The notes under the pieces were generated by a model, which worked only from the letters and a program-made list of their open reading frames with translations, did no database searches and had not been told where the DNA came from. A stretch of DNA of 64,000 nucleotides, from the IMG/VR virus record IMGVR_UViG_3300033141_003168, positions 46,332 to 110,331 of that record; one strand, written 5' to 3'. Positions 1,974-59,918 of this stretch are shown piece after piece; within the stretch, counting starts at the first letter, position 1; the number at the start of each line of letters is the position of its first letter. The DNA is from a virus. The position numbers were made by a program, and so were the translations under genes.

Positions 1974-2543
1974 ATGAACATGGGATTTGACTTAGGAGAT
2001 TTGAAACGACTTGGCAAGAAGGTTTTGAAGAAGGGTGGCGCACCGATATTAGGTACATTACTCGGTGGGCCTGCCGGTTCGATTGCGGGAGATATTCTTG
2101 GTAATTTGTTTGGCGGCGACAAAAGTGCAAAGGAAATTGAAAAACTAATTGACACCGATCCTGCCGCTTACGCAAAACTCAGAGAATATGAAATGAAACA
2201 CAAAGAGGCGTTACAGCAACTTGAGATTGAAGAAAAGAAAATGTATCTTGTCGATATTCAATCAGCGCGGACACGTGAAGTAGAATTTGTAAAAGTAACC
2301 GGAGGACGTGATTGGTTTCATACTATTGTCGGTTCACTTGTGGTTGCCGGATTTATGGCAACTGTGGTTATTTCTTTTAAGATTGTGCCGCCTGTGGGAT
2401 CGGAACGTCTCATTGGAATTTTAATAGGTACACTTGGGGCCGGATTCATTCAGGTGTTAAATTATCTTTATGGTTCTTCAAAAGGTAGTGCCGACAAGGC
2501 GAAAACACTTGAACGAATTGCCGCGAATGGCAGCGGAAAATAA
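1974..2543 (+). CDS. holin-like membrane protein (3TM holin type)
   Basis: APILGTLLGGPAG N-terminus, DIQSARTRE, two C-terminal hydrophobic helices ending YLYGSSKGS. Confidence 0.6.
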   Translation: MNMGFDLGDLKRLGKKVLKKGGAPILGTLLGGPAGSIAGDILGNLFGGDKSAKEIEKLIDTDPAAYAKLREYEMKHKEALQQLEIEEKKMYLVDIQSARTREVEFVKVTGGRDWFHTIVGSLVVAGFMATVVISFKIVPPVGSERLIGILIGTLGAGFIQVLNYLYGSSKGSADKAKTLERIAANGSGK

Positions 2544-2567
2544 ACTACTACGGAAACCGGATTAATT
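2543..2567. repeat. 25-bp dispersed palindrome, copy 1
   Basis: AACTACTACGG-AAA-CCGGATTAATT, directly after a stop codon. Confidence 0.95.
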
Positions 2568-2596
2568 AAATTTTGAAAAAAAGGGAAAATGTTAAA

Positions 2597-2950
2597 ATGC
2601 AAAAGGTAATAGCAATCATAGCGATCGGTGATAAAGAATACGAAGAGGAATTGACGGTTGAAAGTCTTGATTCGCCGGAAGATGCCGTTCGGAAAGTAAT
2701 AAAATTTTTTAATCAAGTCGAGAAAACAAGATATGGAAAAAAAGCACAATTGCGTCGTTTTGTCTGCATCAAAGATTTGGGCCGCGAATATGAAGATCAT
2801 GACTGGGATAAAGTTAATTTCGTTTCTCTGCCTGACGGTTCAGATAGATGGAAGTGTAAGAAATGCGGTCAGGTTATCAAACGGGTTTTAGGACAAGGAT
2901 TTGAACACGCTAAACCGTGTAAGCTAAAACAACCTGAGAAAAGAAAGTAA
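2597..2950 (+). CDS. hypothetical protein with C-terminal CxxC motif
   Basis: ORF abuts the next gene; WKCKKCG. Start set at the ATG of MQKVIA. Confidence 0.6.
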   Translation: MQKVIAIIAIGDKEYEEELTVESLDSPEDAVRKVIKFFNQVEKTRYGKKAQLRRFVCIKDLGREYEDHDWDKVNFVSLPDGSDRWKCKKCGQVIKRVLGQGFEHAKPCKLKQPEKRK

Positions 2951-3727
2951 ATGAGCGCAACAAAGAAATTGGATCAAGATGTACAAGATATTTTTTCAAA
3001 GTGTACTATTCAAGGTAACGTAGTGTTGTTGCCCGAAGGCCAACTTGAACGGGTGATATATGTGAAAGTTGATAAGGCGTTGAAAGCACTGGGTGGCAAG
3101 TGGAACCGCAAGTTAAAAGGTCATGTATTTTCACAAGGCGAAGACCTTCATGCGTTACTGGGGCAAGCAATCAAGTCGGGCGAAGTAATTGACAAAAAAC
3201 AACTGTTTCAGTTTTATGAAACGCCTCGATCACTCGCGGAACGTGTAGTCGAACTTGCAGAAATAGAGGAAGGAATGTTAGTACTCGAACCCTCTGCGGG
3301 TGGTGGTGTAATTGTCAACGCAGTATTAGCGAATACTGAGGCAAGGGATATTCTTGCGATTGAATTGAACAATTTTTGTTGTGATAACATGAGGAATTTG
3401 TTTCAATATGAAGGCTCCAGAGTGACTATCATTCAAAATGATTTTCTTGAAACTAATCCGAAGCCTATTTTCGACAGAGTTGTTATGAATCCTCCGTTTA
3501 CGAAAGGTCAGTGTGTAAAACACATCCTTCATGCACTGAAATGCTTGAAGTCCGGAGGCAGACTTGTTTCGATTGCGAGTCCGGGAATAATGTTTCGGGA
3601 ACAAAAACTGTATAAAGAAGTCAGGGCATGGATAAAGCGGGCGGGATTTTATGAAGAGAATCCCAAAAATTCATTCAAACAGTCGGGCACGGCAGTAAAC
3701 ACGATCACAATAGTAGTTGAACGATAA
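2951..3727 (+). CDS. amino (N6-adenine) DNA methyltransferase
   Basis: QFYETP, VLEPSAGGG (SAM-binding motif I), VVMNPPF (catalytic motif IV). Confidence 0.9.
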   Translation: MSATKKLDQDVQDIFSKCTIQGNVVLLPEGQLERVIYVKVDKALKALGGKWNRKLKGHVFSQGEDLHALLGQAIKSGEVIDKKQLFQFYETPRSLAERVVELAEIEEGMLVLEPSAGGGVIVNAVLANTEARDILAIELNNFCCDNMRNLFQYEGSRVTIIQNDFLETNPKPIFDRVVMNPPFTKGQCVKHILHALKCLKSGGRLVSIASPGIMFREQKLYKEVRAWIKRAGFYEENPKNSFKQSGTAVNTITIVVER

Positions 3728-3741
3728 TAATCGGAGGCAAT

Positions 3742-4863
3742 ATGGCGAAGAAAAAATCTGTCAAGAAAAAGAAGAAGGCCAAAAAAGAAGTTGTTCTTAC
3801 GGAACGAGAACAAGGCTTAGTCGAACGCGTCTTCGAACTCAACAAAACTTACGGCAAAGAAGAGGCATTTATTTTGCCGGGATCAGATGTGGTGTTCGGA
3901 AGTGTAAGGATGCAACCCACGGGCATACCGGCACTTGATAGAATGTTAGGTGGTGGATTTCCCGAAGGAAAAAACATTGAAGTATTCGGGCCAGAGGGTG
4001 GTGGGAAAACGACTCTTGTTCTAAATTATGTAGGTGAGAGGATGAAGGAAGACAAGATGTGCGTTTGGTTCGATGCGGAAGATTCCCTTGAAGTCCAGTG
4101 GGCAAAAAAGTTCGGGATTAGGGTTCAGAAACAACGCAAAGGTGAATCATTAAAAGATGCGTTAATTCGCGCAATCACTACGAGGTCATTGCTATTATGT
4201 AAACCTCAAGTTGGGGAACACGCCCTTGATGCAATGAAAGCGTTCTGCGGCTTTGTTGATGTGATGGTTGTTGATTCTGTTCCGGCATTGCAACCTATTG
4301 CAATGTTGGAAGCATCGAATCTTGACAATTTCATGGGACTAAAGGCGAGAATGATTTCACAAGGGATCGACAACATTGTTTCTGTGAATAAGAAGAAAGA
4401 CCCTTCAACGATAATTTGGATCAATCAGTTAACTACAAATATTGGTGGGTATGGTAATCCTGAAATAACGCCGGGAGGAAAACGCCTCAAGTTTTATGCG
4501 AGACTAAGACTTGGAGTGCGGCAAATTGCGTTTGAGAAACTCGACAAAAAAAATCCTCGTCCCGGTCAAAGAATTGCTTGTTATGCAAAAAAGAATTCCT
4601 ATTACCCGCCACACCGTAAGGCACAGTTCAACCTTATGTATAAGGGTCACTTTGATATTAAAGGTCAAATTATTGATCTTGCAAAGGAGTATGAGATCAT
4701 AGAACGCAAGGGATCATATCTTCACTACAGAGGAGAGAAACGGCAAGGCGATACTAATTTCAAAAAATTTCTTATCAGGAATCCCGACGTATATGCCGAA
4801 CTTTTAGAACTTGTTGTTGAAAATATTAACGAGGAGATTGCAGATACGAAGGGAATATTTTAA
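3742..4863 (+). CDS. recA: RecA/UvsX-family recombinase
   Basis: PTGIPALDRMLGGG, Walker A GPEGGGKTT, DAE, VVDSV, INQ, TPGGKRLKFYA. Confidence 0.95.
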   Translation: MAKKKSVKKKKKAKKEVVLTEREQGLVERVFELNKTYGKEEAFILPGSDVVFGSVRMQPTGIPALDRMLGGGFPEGKNIEVFGPEGGGKTTLVLNYVGERMKEDKMCVWFDAEDSLEVQWAKKFGIRVQKQRKGESLKDALIRAITTRSLLLCKPQVGEHALDAMKAFCGFVDVMVVDSVPALQPIAMLEASNLDNFMGLKARMISQGIDNIVSVNKKKDPSTIIWINQLTTNIGGYGNPEITPGGKRLKFYARLRLGVRQIAFEKLDKKNPRPGQRIACYAKKNSYYPPHRKAQFNLMYKGHFDIKGQIIDLAKEYEIIERKGSYLHYRGEKRQGDTNFKKFLIRNPDVYAELLELVVENINEEIADTKGIF

Positions 4864-58854: not shown

Positions 58855-58855
58855 A

Positions 58856-59341
58856 ATGGCGAAGAAACAGCAACACCCGATACCGGGCAAACGTCATACT
58901 CCTGCGCGTAAATATCGTTACCGCGTGAACGTGCCGGGATTCGCTCACATGGGTTTCTCGAAAGTGAGTGGCCTTTCTTCCGAAACTGCGGTTACGCCTT
59001 ATCGCGAAGGAGATGAACCGCCCACAGACAGAAAGCTTGCAGGTCGCACTTCGTTTGAAAACATTGTCCTCGAACGCGGCGCAGGCCCCGATAGCGACTT
59101 CAAAATCTGGCGCGAGGAAGTCTTCAGTTTGAACGTGGGTAGTGGACTGGACGAAGATGAAACCAGAAGGCACGTTGTTATTCAACTTTTGGACAATCGC
59201 GGAATCGCAGTTATACGCGAATGGACTGTCCCTGAATCGTGGGCAACCAAAGATGAATACGACGACCTCGACGCCTCATCAGACGACGTGGAACTTGAAC
59301 GCCTGACCCTTGCTCATAACGGATGGGAACGGACAATTTAA
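58856..59341 (+). CDS. tail tube protein (T4 gp19-like) 1
   Basis: GFSKVSGL, YREG, RKLAG...ENIVLERG, LDASSDDVELE.L.LAH.G. Confidence 0.92.
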   Translation: MAKKQQHPIPGKRHTPARKYRYRVNVPGFAHMGFSKVSGLSSETAVTPYREGDEPPTDRKLAGRTSFENIVLERGAGPDSDFKIWREEVFSLNVGSGLDEDETRRHVVIQLLDNRGIAVIREWTVPESWATKDEYDDLDASSDDVELERLTLAHNGWERTI

Positions 59342-59364
59342 GCCCGTAGGAGGAATGTAATAAA

Positions 59365-59880
59365 ATGACTGTGATTCTCGGACGCAAGCCGCAACCTTTA
59401 ATGAAATTTCGCTACCGAGTTTTTATTCCCGGTTTTGAAGAAATGGGTTTTACAAAGGTGCGCGGCCTGCGGTCTGAGGTTCCAGTTTTGGAAGTTGAAG
59501 AGGGTGGTAATCAAGTGCCTTATAAATTTCCAGATCGCAAAGTTAATTTTGGTAACGTGCTTCTTGAAACCGGCCTCGCCAAAGCAAAGGATTTGAGGTT
59601 GTGGTTTGAGGAACATTTACGATGGAGTAGAGGTTTGCAATCACCAATTTATCGACCTGTGCTAATTACCGTTCTGGATAAAAGATACCGTCCAGAAAAG
59701 GCATGGGAACTTTTTAACGCTTGGCCCACAATTATAGAATCCGATGGACTTGACGCGAACTCAAACGATGTAGTGTTACAAACAATCGAACTTGCGAACT
59801 TCGGTATTGCAAGTCGCAACTTAGGTACTGGACAAAAATTATCTGGTGGCCTTCAACATAGTTTTTCTGCGTTTGCATAA
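59365..59880 (+). CDS. tail tube protein (T4 gp19-like) 2
   Basis: GFTKVRGL, EEGGN, W.LFNAWP, LDANSNDV. Confidence 0.9.
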   Translation: MTVILGRKPQPLMKFRYRVFIPGFEEMGFTKVRGLRSEVPVLEVEEGGNQVPYKFPDRKVNFGNVLLETGLAKAKDLRLWFEEHLRWSRGLQSPIYRPVLITVLDKRYRPEKAWELFNAWPTIIESDGLDANSNDVVLQTIELANFGIASRNLGTGQKLSGGLQHSFSAFA

Positions 59881-59893
59881 AGAGAATATAATA

Positions 59894-59918
59894 AACTACT
59901 ACGGAAACCGTTGTAGTT
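59894..59918. repeat. 25-bp dispersed palindrome, copy 15
   Basis: AACTACTACGG-AAA-CCGTTGTAGTT, between a stop and an RBS. Confidence 0.95.

What the first reader, a model, noticed from the sequence alone, without database searches (positions are those of the whole stretch)
2543..59918. Genome-wide array of at least 15 copies of a 25-bp palindromic site, AAYTAnnnCGG-N3-CCGnnnTARTT
Seen: copies start at 2543, 4862, 12122, 17598, 20036, 23150, 30826, 31077, 32802, 33865, 37341, 45767, 49028, 55457 and 59894, 0.25-8.4 kb apart. They occur in the replication, early and structural blocks regardless of transcription direction. The CGG/CCG core, the TA dinucleotide and the 3-bp spacer length are invariant. 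The three middle bases of each half vary independently (CTA, CTC, ATC, CAA, CCC, CTG) with no compensation between arms. Most copies sit between a stop codon and the next RBS, and none overlaps the consensus sigma70 promoters found. Inference: this is a dsDNA site for a dimeric protein, not an RNA hairpin and not a classical promoter operator. The even spread suggests a whole-genome function such as parS/matS/SBS-like organisation or segregation, stoperator-like elongation roadblocks, loading sites for a protective protein, or recombination/nicking sites. It may be an undescribed phage cis-element system.
Basis: partly seen in the sequence, partly recalled or inferred. Interest (0 to 1): 0.9.

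Follow-up and report, generated by a model that had tools for sequence, protein, structure and literature searches.

The report
Dispersed palindromic protein-binding sites, phage genome
A 110-kb uncultured phage carries 23 copies (15 in this window) of a roughly 31-bp palindrome that behaves as a double-stranded DNA site for a dimeric phage protein. They lie about every 5 kb and are kept in place even inside genes, and the likeliest binder is the phage's own ParB/KorB-like protein; a similar repeat of unknown function is already known from Cluster O mycobacteriophages.

Summary
The 19-bp core TA-N3-CGG-N3-CCG-N3-TA occurs 15 times in the window (0.05 expected) and 23 times in the 110,331-bp phage genome. 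The full consensus is about 31 bp: TTAAYTACTMCGG-W3-CCGKAGTARTTAA.

It is a dsDNA dimer site, not a hairpin. Half-sites occur almost only as inverted pairs with exactly 3 bp between them. The arms show no covariation, and predicted hairpin energies run from -1.9 to -14.5 kcal/mol.

Relatives with 50-75% protein identity carry the same motif at the same density. Seven of eight comparable sites sit at orthologous positions, including all three inside ORFs. Those three fill what would otherwise be a 22.5-kb gap, so no gap exceeds 9.4 kb.

It is not a promoter, a terminator, a host REP element or a host regulon. No bacterial species genome and no other viral contig carries it in multiple copies.

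The best candidate binder lies outside the window: an orphan ParB/Noc/KorB-fold protein that is conserved in the motif-bearing relative. No ParA, integrase, sigma factor or phage RNA polymerase was found.

The closest precedents are the Cluster O mycobacteriophage repeat TGTTCGG-N3-CCGAACA (function unknown) and the twelve KorB OB sites of plasmid RK2. I rate it a new variant of a known kind. Binding was not tested.

The parts
2543..2567 (.). site copy, core TACTACGGAAACCGGATTA; intergenic, the upstream stop codon ends at the site's first base
4862..4886 (.). site copy; the upstream stop codon TAA lies in the left flank, and SD and ATG follow within 16 nt
12122..12146 (.). site copy, inverted orientation (centre TTT); intergenic
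17598..17622 (.). site copy (centre TAA); intergenic
20036..20060 (.). site copy, perfect arms (centre TTT); intergenic
23150..23174 (.). site copy; intergenic, upstream of the M16 peptidase gene
30826..30850 (.). site copy in the 1.3-kb non-coding region between convergent gene blocks, just after a strong terminator-like hairpin (30748-30777); not upstream of any gene
31077..31101 (.). second site copy in the same non-coding region, 251 bp from the first
32802..32826 (.). site copy in the minus-strand early block; its left flank is TATTA, so it misses the strict 25-bp pattern; 22 bp from a sigma-70-like promoter (32780-32752, minus strand)
33865..33889 (.). site copy in the minus-strand early block, in the usual orientation relative to those genes; start codon 29 nt downstream on the minus strand
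37341..37365 (.). site copy at the head of the packaging and structural module (before the 70-aa ORF and the large terminase); at the orthologous position in relatives
45767..45791 (.). site copy inside the 2106-aa ORF (about residue 759, between methylase and ligase domains); at the orthologous position in relative G004
49028..49052 (.). site copy inside the 2106-aa ORF (about residue 1846); at the orthologous position in relative G001
55457..55481 (.). site copy 38 nt inside the 409-aa ORF 55422-56651; at the orthologous position in relative G001
59894..59918 (.). site copy; intergenic, at the orthologous position in relative G001
29406..30458 (+). lysine-rich protein with an HTH and a coiled coil, next to the double site; conserved in relative G004 (44% over 226 aa); resembles small terminase subunits; a lesser candidate binder

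Best explanation
The repeats are double-stranded DNA recognition sites, each bound by a homodimer of a phage-encoded protein. One subunit reads each 13-14-bp half-site (WTWAAYTACTMCGG) across an A/T-rich 3-bp centre.

The most likely binder is the phage's orphan ParB/Noc/KorB-family protein (346 aa, genome 36449-37489, about 9 kb upstream of the window). On this reading the 23 sites work like the OB sites of plasmid RK2 or the Noc-binding sites of Bacillus. They are dispersed loading or anchoring points from which the protein acts on the whole chromosome, for gene silencing or timing, or for organising and marking phage DNA. That would explain why a site is kept at least every 9.4 kb, even inside genes.

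Shown: the sites exist, are under selection at DNA level, and have dimer-site rather than hairpin anatomy; and a ParB-fold protein is encoded here and in the motif-bearing relative. Inferred: that this protein binds the sites, and what binding does.
For: Dimer-site anatomy:
- The 3-bp spacer is invariant, and 46 of 50 half-site hits are paired.
- Pairing between arms equals the shuffled expectation, 84.3% against 84.6%.
- RNA hairpin energies are as weak as -1.9 kcal/mol.

Selection on DNA:
- The same motif occurs at one per 4-5 kb in relatives with 50-75% protein identity and a different G+C content.
- Seven of the eight sites in regions covered by relatives are at orthologous positions.
- All three in-ORF sites are kept, while the encoded peptide changes with the motif variant: TETG, TESA, ADSA, AEPV.
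- The in-ORF sites fill a 22.5-kb gap.

Specific to this clade:
- Elsewhere in 2.9 million viral contigs and 185,579 bacterial species genomes there are only single matches at the chance level.
- About 30 more distant relatives (portal identity 43% or less) have no such repeat family near the portal gene.

Candidate binder:
- It has a Pfam ParB_N domain and sequence matches to solved ParB, Spo0J and Noc structures.
- The AlphaFold2 model (pLDDT 86) aligns over 204-283 columns, probability 1.00, with ParB-parS, Noc and KorB-KorA-DNA structures, covering both the N-terminal domain and the HTH DNA-binding domain.
- Its 51%-identical orthologue sits on the 109,727-bp contig of the motif-bearing relative, and the putative recognition helix is nearly unchanged.
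- A conserved PGRPK, AT-hook-like stretch could read the AT-rich outer flank; this is inference.

Precedent:
- RK2 has twelve OB palindromes in about 60 kb, conserved in sequence and position in the distant plasmid R751 (PMC13768133). KorB loads there as a sliding clamp (PMC11790492).
- Cluster O phages, which have the CGG-N3-CCG repeat, also encode a ParB_N protein (PMC4351075).
Against: - Binding was not tested, and no tool here can test it.
- ParB_N proteins are common in large phages, so co-occurrence is weak evidence.
- The site (19-31 bp) is longer than known ParB-family sites (13-16 bp).
- The nucleotide-binding motif is off the canonical GERRxR. It reads GKTRLK here and GxERxRA in the orthologues, so clamp behaviour is uncertain.
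- No site lies next to the ParB-like gene; the nearest are 2.2 and 2.0 kb away.
- The genome encodes other DNA-binding candidates.
- The protein shares only the N-terminal domain with Corndog gp90, 28% identity over 80 aa.
- Even spacing could partly reflect operon structure.
Confidence: 0.45

Rival explanations
1. The sites are operators or elongation roadblocks for a different phage regulator, such as an HTH, ribbon-helix-helix or zinc-ribbon protein. This global repressor or temporal switch would bind inside operons, as Cluster A stoperators, SPbeta SPBRE/MrpR or P1 C1 operators do.
For: - The dimer-site anatomy fits as well as it does for ParB.
- The sites are intercistronic within long co-directional operons, whose sigma-70-like promoters lie in other, larger gaps.
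- Several uncharacterised DNA-binding candidates exist: an HTH plus double zinc ribbon protein next to the ParB-like gene, weak RHH and HTH matches, and an early block with no family matches at all.
- Precedents: SPBRE is bound by MrpR at about ten sites (PMC10516654), and stoperators are documented (PMC9283540).
Against: - No integrase or other sign of lysogeny was found.
- Stoperators are asymmetric and oriented with transcription, whereas these sites are palindromic with only a 15:5 orientation bias.
- Two sites lie in a non-coding region downstream of converging transcription, where there is nothing to block.
- None of these candidates was shown to be conserved in relatives except the terminase-like HTH protein.
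Confidence: 0.3
2. The sites are places where DNA is cut, nicked or recombined. They could be targets of a site- or structure-specific endonuclease (HNH, RuvC-like or a ParB-type nuclease) that primes recombination-dependent replication or leaves T5-like nicks.
For: - The phage encodes RecA, a RuvC-like protein, a PD-(D/E)XK nuclease and an HNH endonuclease.
- Regular spacing would suit replication or recombination start points.
- In Cluster O phages, recombination between repeat copies explains some indels (PMC4351075).
Against: - Many copies are imperfect palindromes that would extrude cruciforms poorly.
- Synteny and site positions are stable between relatives, with no sign of rearrangement at the sites.
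- A dyad axis through a base pair does not fit the 2-nt staggered cuts of serine recombinases; this is inference.
- No read-level data could be obtained.
Confidence: 0.1
3. The element works in RNA or single-stranded DNA as a hairpin: an intercistronic terminator or attenuator, an RNase processing site or an mRNA stabiliser.
For: - Some copies form good hairpins followed by a T run, for example 45767 at -14.5 and 55457 at -13.2 kcal/mol. One was picked up as terminator-like on the minus strand.
- The sites sit between a stop codon and the SD sequence.
- The centre is A-rich on the sense strand in 15 of 20 copies, P = 0.04.
Against: - There is no covariation at all.
- The commonest variant (9 copies) has two mismatches in an 8-bp stem and folds at only -1.9 to -7.6 kcal/mol.
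- Three copies lie inside ORFs and are conserved there; one of these is the most stable hairpin of all.
- Primary sequence is conserved across relatives where structure alone would suffice.
- There is no Rfam match.
Confidence: 0.05
4. The element is a promoter for a phage-specific transcription machinery, such as a phage RNA polymerase, a sigma factor or an N4-like hairpin promoter.
For: - There are many copies upstream of genes.
- Sigma-70-like matches are not enriched over shuffles, so other promoters must exist.
Against: - No T7-like RNA polymerase or sigma-70 region 2 was found in six-frame searches of the whole genome. The RNA polymerase search had no positive control.
- Family scans of about 70 proteins found none either.
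- The start codon is only 19-32 nt from the core, with the SD sequence in between.
- One copy is 38 nt inside its gene, two are in a region with no downstream gene, and copies occur in both orientations.
Confidence: 0.04
5. The element is a small mobile or selfish palindrome (REP- or MITE-like) spreading in the phage genome with no function of its own.
For: - Nine copies have an identical 19-bp core.
- An IS607-like element lies in the genome.
Against: - Positions are orthologous in relatives that have diverged to 50-75% protein identity, including in-frame copies inside genes.
- There is no Y1 (RAYT/IS200) transposase; the insertion element present is of the serine-recombinase type.
- The element is absent from all bacterial species genomes.
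Confidence: 0.03

Closest known systems
Cluster O mycobacteriophage 17-bp repeat, TGTTCGG-N3-CCGAACA (Corndog and relatives; PMC4351075)
   Same: - It has an inverted repeat around a 3-bp A/T-rich centre (AAA or TTT in 29 of 34 copies) and the same inner CGG-N3-CCG.
- Corndog has 34 copies dispersed through the genome, in short intergenic gaps, at 5' ends of genes and inside genes.
- It shows a slight preference for AAA on the sense strand, 14:6 there against 15:5 here.
- It is absent from host genomes, and most copies are positionally conserved among relatives.
- The phages encode a ParB_N protein, a beta clamp and an AAA ATPase.
- The authors judged the copies to be dimeric-protein sites unrelated to promoters. 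I confirmed 29 copies in the right 45 kb of Corndog.
   Different: - The outer arm sequence differs (TGTT against TACTM), and the site here extends to about 31 bp with AT-rich flanks.
- Density is lower here, one per 4.8 kb against one per 2 kb.
- The hosts and virion types are unrelated (a 65% G+C siphovirus against a 40% G+C myovirus-like phage).
- No protein is shared at BLAST level except the ParB N-terminal domain.
- The function of the Cluster O repeat is itself unknown.
KorB operator (OB) network of IncP plasmid RK2 (PMC11790492, PMC13768133)
   Same: - The OB sites are odd-length palindromes with the dyad on a base pair, at about one per 5 kb (12 in about 60 kb).
- They are conserved in sequence and position in a distant relative.
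- Their distances to promoters vary.
- The binder is a ParB-CTPase-fold protein, and the fold model here matches KorB-KorA-DNA.
   Different: - OB is 13 bp, whereas this site is 19-31 bp.
- RK2 also has the ParA-type IncC and the clamp-locking partners KorA and TrbA. No ParA was found here and no partner is known.
- The nucleotide-binding motif here is non-canonical.
- The replicon is a phage that looks virulent.
Noc and its binding sites in Bacillus subtilis (structures 7OL9 and 7NFU matched)
   Same: It is an orphan ParB-family protein without a ParA partner, binding many palindromic sites spread over a chromosome to mark or organise DNA rather than segregate it.
   Different: - Its site is a 14-bp palindrome.
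- It is a host protein with a membrane-targeting N-terminus.
- No evidence here bears on membrane binding.
Stoperators of Cluster A mycobacteriophages (PMC9283540)
   Same: There are 20-30 sites dispersed in short intergenic gaps inside operons of a phage genome, bound by one phage protein.
   Different: - They are 13-bp asymmetric sites oriented with transcription and read by a monomeric repressor of a temperate phage.
- The sites here are palindromic, and no lysogeny genes were found.
SPBRE elements and the MrpR repressor of Bacillus prophage SPbeta (PMC10516654)
   Same: A repeated element noticed in silico in intergenic regions of a large phage was later shown to be the site of a master regulator.
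   Different: - It is a 15-bp motif at about ten promoters.
- The binder has a tyrosine-recombinase fold.
- The phage is temperate.

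Membership tests
ParB/KorB/Noc-type site-and-protein system | Palindromic double-stranded DNA site read by a dimer | tested here: met
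   Half-sites are paired in inverted orientation with a fixed 3-bp spacer, and the arms do not covary.
ParB/KorB/Noc-type site-and-protein system | The same replicon encodes a protein with a ParB N-terminal domain plus an HTH DNA-binding domain | tested here: met
   Pfam ParB_N, matches to solved ParB/Spo0J/Noc sequences, and an AF2 model (pLDDT 86) matching ParB-parS, Noc and KorB over 204-283 columns. The gene is at genome 36449-37489, outside the window.
ParB/KorB/Noc-type site-and-protein system | That protein binds these sites specifically | not testable with these tools
   This needs EMSA, DAP-seq or ChIP-seq. The only indirect support is an orthologue (51% identity) on the motif-bearing relative's 109,727-bp contig.
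ParB/KorB/Noc-type site-and-protein system | Canonical CTP-binding motif (GERRxR) and clamp formation | tested here: inconclusive
   The motif reads GKTRLK in this phage and GxERxRA in five orthologues. The second motif, DNxLRR, is kept. Nucleotide binding was not tested.
ParABS partition system | A ParA-type ATPase partner | tested here: not met
   A six-frame search of the whole genome with PF13614 found nothing, while the control rang in 14 of 14 genomes.
Cluster O-type dispersed repeat | Inverted arms around a 3-bp A/T-rich centre with CGG-N3-CCG, more than 20 dispersed copies, both intergenic and in ORFs | tested here: met
   compared with PMC4351075 and with Corndog itself.
Cluster O-type dispersed repeat | The same arm sequence (TGTTCGG) or demonstrably homologous phage proteins | tested here: not met
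   The arms here read TACTMCGG. tblastn of all proteins of this phage against the right 45 kb of Corndog gave nothing meaningful. Only the ParB N-terminal domains align, E = 1e-4.
Stoperator | Asymmetric site oriented with transcription, in a temperate phage with an immunity repressor | tested here: not met
   The site is palindromic with a 15:5 orientation bias. No tyrosine integrase was found.
Intrinsic terminator or structured RNA hairpin | Stem kept by compensatory changes and, for terminators, a T run | tested here: not met
   Covariation equals the shuffled expectation. Folding energies go down to -1.9 kcal/mol. Three copies lie inside ORFs. There is no Rfam match.
Host REP element or host regulator regulon | Many copies in a bacterial genome | tested here: not met
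   There were 32 single matches in 596 Gb of 185,579 species genomes, about the chance number. No genome holds more than one distinct site. The true host may not be in the collection.
Phage-specific promoter | A cognate RNA polymerase or sigma factor, and a position compatible with a transcription start upstream of the SD sequence | tested here: not met
   No sigma-70 region 2 or T7-like RNA polymerase was found (the latter had no positive control). The core lies 19-32 nt from the start codon, one copy is 38 nt inside its ORF, and two copies have no downstream gene.

The most novel reading that the evidence does not exclude
An apparently virulent, ParA-less phage uses an orphan ParB/KorB-family protein that loads at 23 positionally conserved palindromes, never more than about 9.4 kb apart and written through coding sequence where needed. 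In this way it would cover its whole chromosome, as a self-marking, silencing or compaction system for phage DNA. The Cluster O mycobacteriophage repeats, unexplained since 2015, and a TTAGCGTG-W4-CACGCTAA repeat in an unrelated 57-kb phage that also encodes a ParB_N protein, would be further examples of the same principle.
Probability: 0.3. Interest if true: 0.8.

Novelty: new variant of a known kind. Interest (0 to 1): 0.6.

Why it matters
Dispersed dyad-symmetric repeats have been seen in a few phage groups. The clearest case is Cluster O mycobacteriophages, where no binder or function has been found.

This clade adds evidence that the Cluster O comparison did not report:
- The sites are kept at orthologous positions across deep divergence.
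- They are kept inside genes at the cost of the protein sequence.
- They are placed so that no stretch longer than about 9 kb lacks one.

Together with a well-modelled ParB/KorB-fold protein that has no ParA partner, this gives a concrete hypothesis that can be tested cheaply with a synthetic gene, a 31-bp duplex and CTP. It asks what orphan ParB-like proteins, which are common in large phages, actually do. If the hypothesis holds, it would extend KorB- or Noc-like long-range DNA clamps to virulent phage chromosomes.

Tried and rejected
Tools that were closed or gave nothing:
I therefore could not fetch the relatives' full contigs or any read or RNA evidence.
- No close isolate phage was found by DNA or protein search.
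- Single-protein scans of viral contigs with the portal and the ParB-like protein found nothing.
- The word-based protein search missed the ParB orthologues. The full HMMER search found them.
- tblastn of the ParB-like protein against isolate phages found no match.
- A profile scan of viral contigs with the ParB-like family found only distant N-domain relatives, so co-variation between motif and protein could not be tested.
- A 9-mer repeat screen of relatives' loci was too noisy to use.

Readings considered and rejected:
- A sigma-70 promoter, or a class II or MerR-type activator site. The geometry relative to the start codon does not fit.
- An N4-like hairpin promoter. No virion RNA polymerase was found; the 2106-aa ORF is a methylase-ligase-methylase fusion.
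- A serine- or tyrosine-recombinase core site, because of the odd 3-bp centre and the absence of an integrase.
- A REP/RAYT element, because there is no Y1 transposase.
- The HTH protein 29406-30458 as the main binder. It looks like a small terminase subunit.

Full report
**Observation**

Thirteen copies also match the strict 25-bp pattern, against 0.00 expected. The copies at 32802 and 33865 differ only in one outer flank.

The window is bases 46332-110331 of a 110,331-bp IMG/VR virus record whose ends repeat for 114 bp. The whole genome has 23 copies and none of the reversed control pattern.

Aligning the copies extends the conserved part to about 31 bp, with the consensus TTAAYTACTMCGG-W3-CCGKAGTARTTAA.

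**Genome context**

The genome looks like a myovirus, with baseplate wedge and hub proteins and a tape measure. It has its own replisome:
- DnaE-type polymerase
- beta clamp
- DnaB-like helicase
- primase

It also encodes RecA, several DNA methylases, an intein-bearing thymidylate-synthase-like gene and an IS607-like insertion. No close isolate exists. Six-frame searches of the whole genome found no ParA-type ATPase, tyrosine integrase, sigma-70 region 2 or T7-like RNA polymerase (the last search had no positive control).

**DNA site or hairpin?**

Half-site-like sequences occur 46 times inside full sites and only 4 times alone. No full site has a spacer of 2 or 4 bp.

On an alignment of 35 sites from this phage and its relatives, 84.3% of arm positions pair. 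Shuffling the 3' letters gives 84.6%. The covariation score is 0.083 against 0.084. The palindrome therefore arises because each half matches one consensus, not because the arms are selected to pair.

Predicted RNA hairpins range from -1.9 to -14.5 kcal/mol. The commonest variant, TACTACGGAAACCGGATTA (nine copies), has two mismatches in its 8-bp stem. There is no Rfam family or tRNA in the window.

This is the anatomy of a site read on duplex DNA by a dimer.

**Placement**

A recurrent arrangement is a stop codon 1-8 nt before the core, often supplied by the TAA in the site's own flank, with the start codon 19-32 nt after the core and the SD sequence in between. The gaps that hold sites are mostly only 39-93 bp long.

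The better sigma-70-like promoters lie in other, larger gaps, and such matches are not enriched overall. The sites are therefore intercistronic elements inside long co-directional operons.

Two copies (30826 and 31077) lie in a 1.3-kb non-coding stretch between converging gene blocks, just past a strong terminator-like hairpin. No gene follows them.

Three copies lie inside ORFs. Two sit at domain junctions of the 2106-aa methylase-ligase-methylase protein, and one sits 38 nt into a 409-aa ORF. All three use the only frame that the TAA- and TAG-rich flanks leave open.

The central triplet is A-rich on the sense strand in 15 of 20 assignable copies (P = 0.04). This is a weak bias, and the Cluster O repeat shows it too.

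**Spacing**

| Measure | Observed | Random positions | P |
|---|---|---|---|
| Coefficient of variation of spacing (circular genome) | 0.56 | 0.94 | 0.002 |
| Largest gap | 9.4 kb | 17.9 kb | 0.001 |

The 20 intergenic copies alone are no more even than a random draw from intergenic gaps. The effect comes from the three in-ORF copies, which divide a 22.5-kb stretch of long genes.

**Relatives**

A pattern scan of 2.9 million viral contigs gave single, chance-level matches apart from a few contigs from two metagenomes. Those contigs are relatives:
- Their portal proteins are 50% identical and other proteins are 26-77% identical.
- They are syntenic with this genome, at 47-52% G+C against 40% here.
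- They carry TTAAWTACTNCGG-AWT-CCGNAGTAATTAA at 3-6 copies per 14-24 kb, the same density as here.

Seven of the eight sites in regions covered by these fragments have a counterpart at the orthologous place, and this includes all three in-ORF sites. Seen from the relatives' side, seven of nine mappable sites are shared.

Inside the ORFs the surrounding protein is poorly conserved, and the encoded peptide changes in step with the motif variant: TETG, TESA, ADSA, AEPV. Selection therefore acts on the nucleotides.

About 30 more distant relatives (portal identity 43% or less) show no such repeat family within 10 kb of the portal gene. The same finder recovers the family in the close relative.

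A scan of 185,579 bacterial and archaeal species genomes gave 32 single matches, about the number expected by chance. None sits in a phage relative, and no genome holds more than one distinct site.

The element is therefore specific to this phage clade. It is not a host REP family or a host regulon, with the caveat that the true host may not be in that collection.

**Readings excluded**

- **Promoter.** There is no room for a transcription start before the SD sequence, one copy lies inside its own gene, two have no gene downstream, copies occur in both orientations, and no phage RNA polymerase or sigma factor was found.
- **Terminator or RNA processing site.** The arms do not covary, many hairpins are weak, and conserved copies lie inside ORFs.
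- **Mobile palindrome.** Positions are orthologous across deep divergence, and there is no Y1 transposase.

**Who binds?**

The phage encodes a 346-aa protein (genome 36449-37489, outside the window) with these features:
- It has a Pfam ParB_N domain and sequence matches to solved ParB, Spo0J and Noc structures.
- A full HMMER search found orthologues at 51, 48, 42, 36 and 33% identity and more than 3,000 ParB-family relatives.
- A near-identical member of the 51% cluster lies on a 109,727-bp contig, which is the length of the motif-bearing relative's contig.
- An AlphaFold2 model from a 71-sequence alignment (pLDDT 86, pTM 0.73) matches ParB-parS, Noc and KorB-KorA-DNA structures at probability 1.00 over 204-283 columns. 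The match covers the N-terminal domain and the HTH DNA-binding domain, and a long helical C-terminal part follows.
- The putative recognition helix is nearly the same in the 51% orthologue. A conserved PGRPK stretch between the domains resembles an AT-hook and could read the AT-rich outer flank; that last point is inference.

Points against this protein as the binder:
- The nucleotide-binding motif is non-canonical, GKTRLK here and GxERxRA in the orthologues.
- Known ParB-family sites are shorter, at 13-16 bp.
- ParB_N proteins are common in phages.
- Binding was not tested.

Other candidates are an HTH plus double zinc ribbon protein next to the ParB-like gene, weak RHH and HTH matches in the window, and an early block with no family matches.

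**Comparison with what is known**

Cluster O mycobacteriophages carry more than 30 copies of TGTTCGG-N3-CCGAACA. The parallels are close:
- The centre is mostly AAA or TTT.
- Copies lie in short intergenic gaps, at 5' ends of genes and inside genes.
- AAA is slightly preferred on the sense strand.
- The repeat is absent from host genomes.
- The authors judged the copies to be sites for a dimeric protein unrelated to promoters.
- Those phages also encode a ParB-like protein.

No function is known for that repeat (PMC4351075). I found no later paper in the library that assigns one. I confirmed 29 copies in the right 45 kb of Corndog.

The inner CGG-W3-CCG is shared with the present motif. The outer arms differ, and no protein is shared at BLAST level except the ParB N-terminal domain.

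The mechanistic model I prefer comes from plasmid RK2. It has twelve KorB OB palindromes in about 60 kb, conserved in sequence and position in a distant plasmid. KorB loads at them as a CTP-dependent sliding clamp and silences promoters at a distance (PMC13768133, PMC11790492). Noc, SPBRE/MrpR (PMC10516654) and stoperators (PMC9283540) are further analogues. The present sites fail the defining features of stoperators, which are asymmetry and orientation with transcription.

One more lead came from the loci fetched with the ParB-like family. An unrelated complete 57-kb phage holds six dispersed copies of TTAGCGTG-W4-CACGCTAA, and one copy lies about 400 bp from its ParB_N gene.

**Verdict**

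The finding is real and under strong DNA-level selection, and it is almost certainly a dimeric-protein site on duplex DNA (my estimate is about 0.85). I put the ParB-like protein as the binder, with the sites serving a genome-wide KorB- or Noc-like role, at about 0.45. A different phage regulator using the sites as dispersed operators or roadblocks is the main rival, at about 0.3.

The kind is known, from Cluster O repeats and KorB networks, so this is a new variant rather than a new category. The positional conservation through coding sequence and the link to an orphan ParB make it a good system for finding out what such repeats do.

Noticed in passing
window 26783-28560: An IS607-like insertion sequence lies inside the phage: a serine-recombinase transposase (203 aa, phrog_6620) followed by a TnpB-like gene (389 aa, phrog_506). 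A near-consensus sigma-70-like promoter sits at 26756-26784.
   Followed up: no
window 30436-30564 and 30460-31765: A 1.3-kb non-coding region lies between converging gene blocks. It holds three copies of TAAAGGGTGTCRTAAA at the end of, and just after, the terminase-small-subunit-like gene, plus many short GAAAA/TTCCC-type repeats. It could be a pac site or a replication origin. It also holds two of the palindromes.
   Followed up: partly
window 43491-49811: A 2106-aa ORF between the MuF-like gene and the next head-module genes fuses a D12-class adenine methylase, an ATP-dependent DNA ligase domain and a C5 cytosine methylase. Two palindromes lie at its domain junctions.
   Followed up: partly
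window 14021-16168: A 715-aa ORF has a thymidylate-synthase-like domain interrupted by an intein (Intein_splicing and Hint_2 matches).
   Followed up: no
window 41380-43449: A MuF-like head protein (689 aa) has a C-terminal stretch matching the Pfam ATLF domain family (residues 491-576, E = 1.3e-8). This may be a zincin-type peptidase module.
   Followed up: no
genome 36449-37489 (locus L115:17449-18489), outside the window: This is an orphan ParB/Noc/KorB-fold protein with a lysine-rich disordered N-terminus. Its nucleotide-binding motif (GKTRLK) departs from that of its five orthologues (GxERxRA). No ParA is encoded in the genome.
   Followed up: yes
locus L281 / record G006 (IMGVR_UViG_3300010376_000011, 57,131 bp), sites at 7175, 21663, 33643, 38524, 42723, 53485: An unrelated complete phage genome that encodes a distant ParB_N protein has six dispersed copies of the 20-bp palindrome TTAGCGTG-W4-CACGCTAA and none of the reversed control. 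One copy lies about 400 bp from the ParB_N gene.
   Followed up: partly
genome 21872-23650 (locus L115:2872-4650), outside the window: A 1.8-kb stretch without a credible ORF holds one of the palindromes (genome 22228). This is the one comparable site with no counterpart in the relative's fragment.
   Followed up: no
window 23198-24475: An M16 (insulinase-type) peptidase with its inactive C-terminal domain is encoded in the non-structural part of the phage, directly after a palindrome.
   Followed up: no
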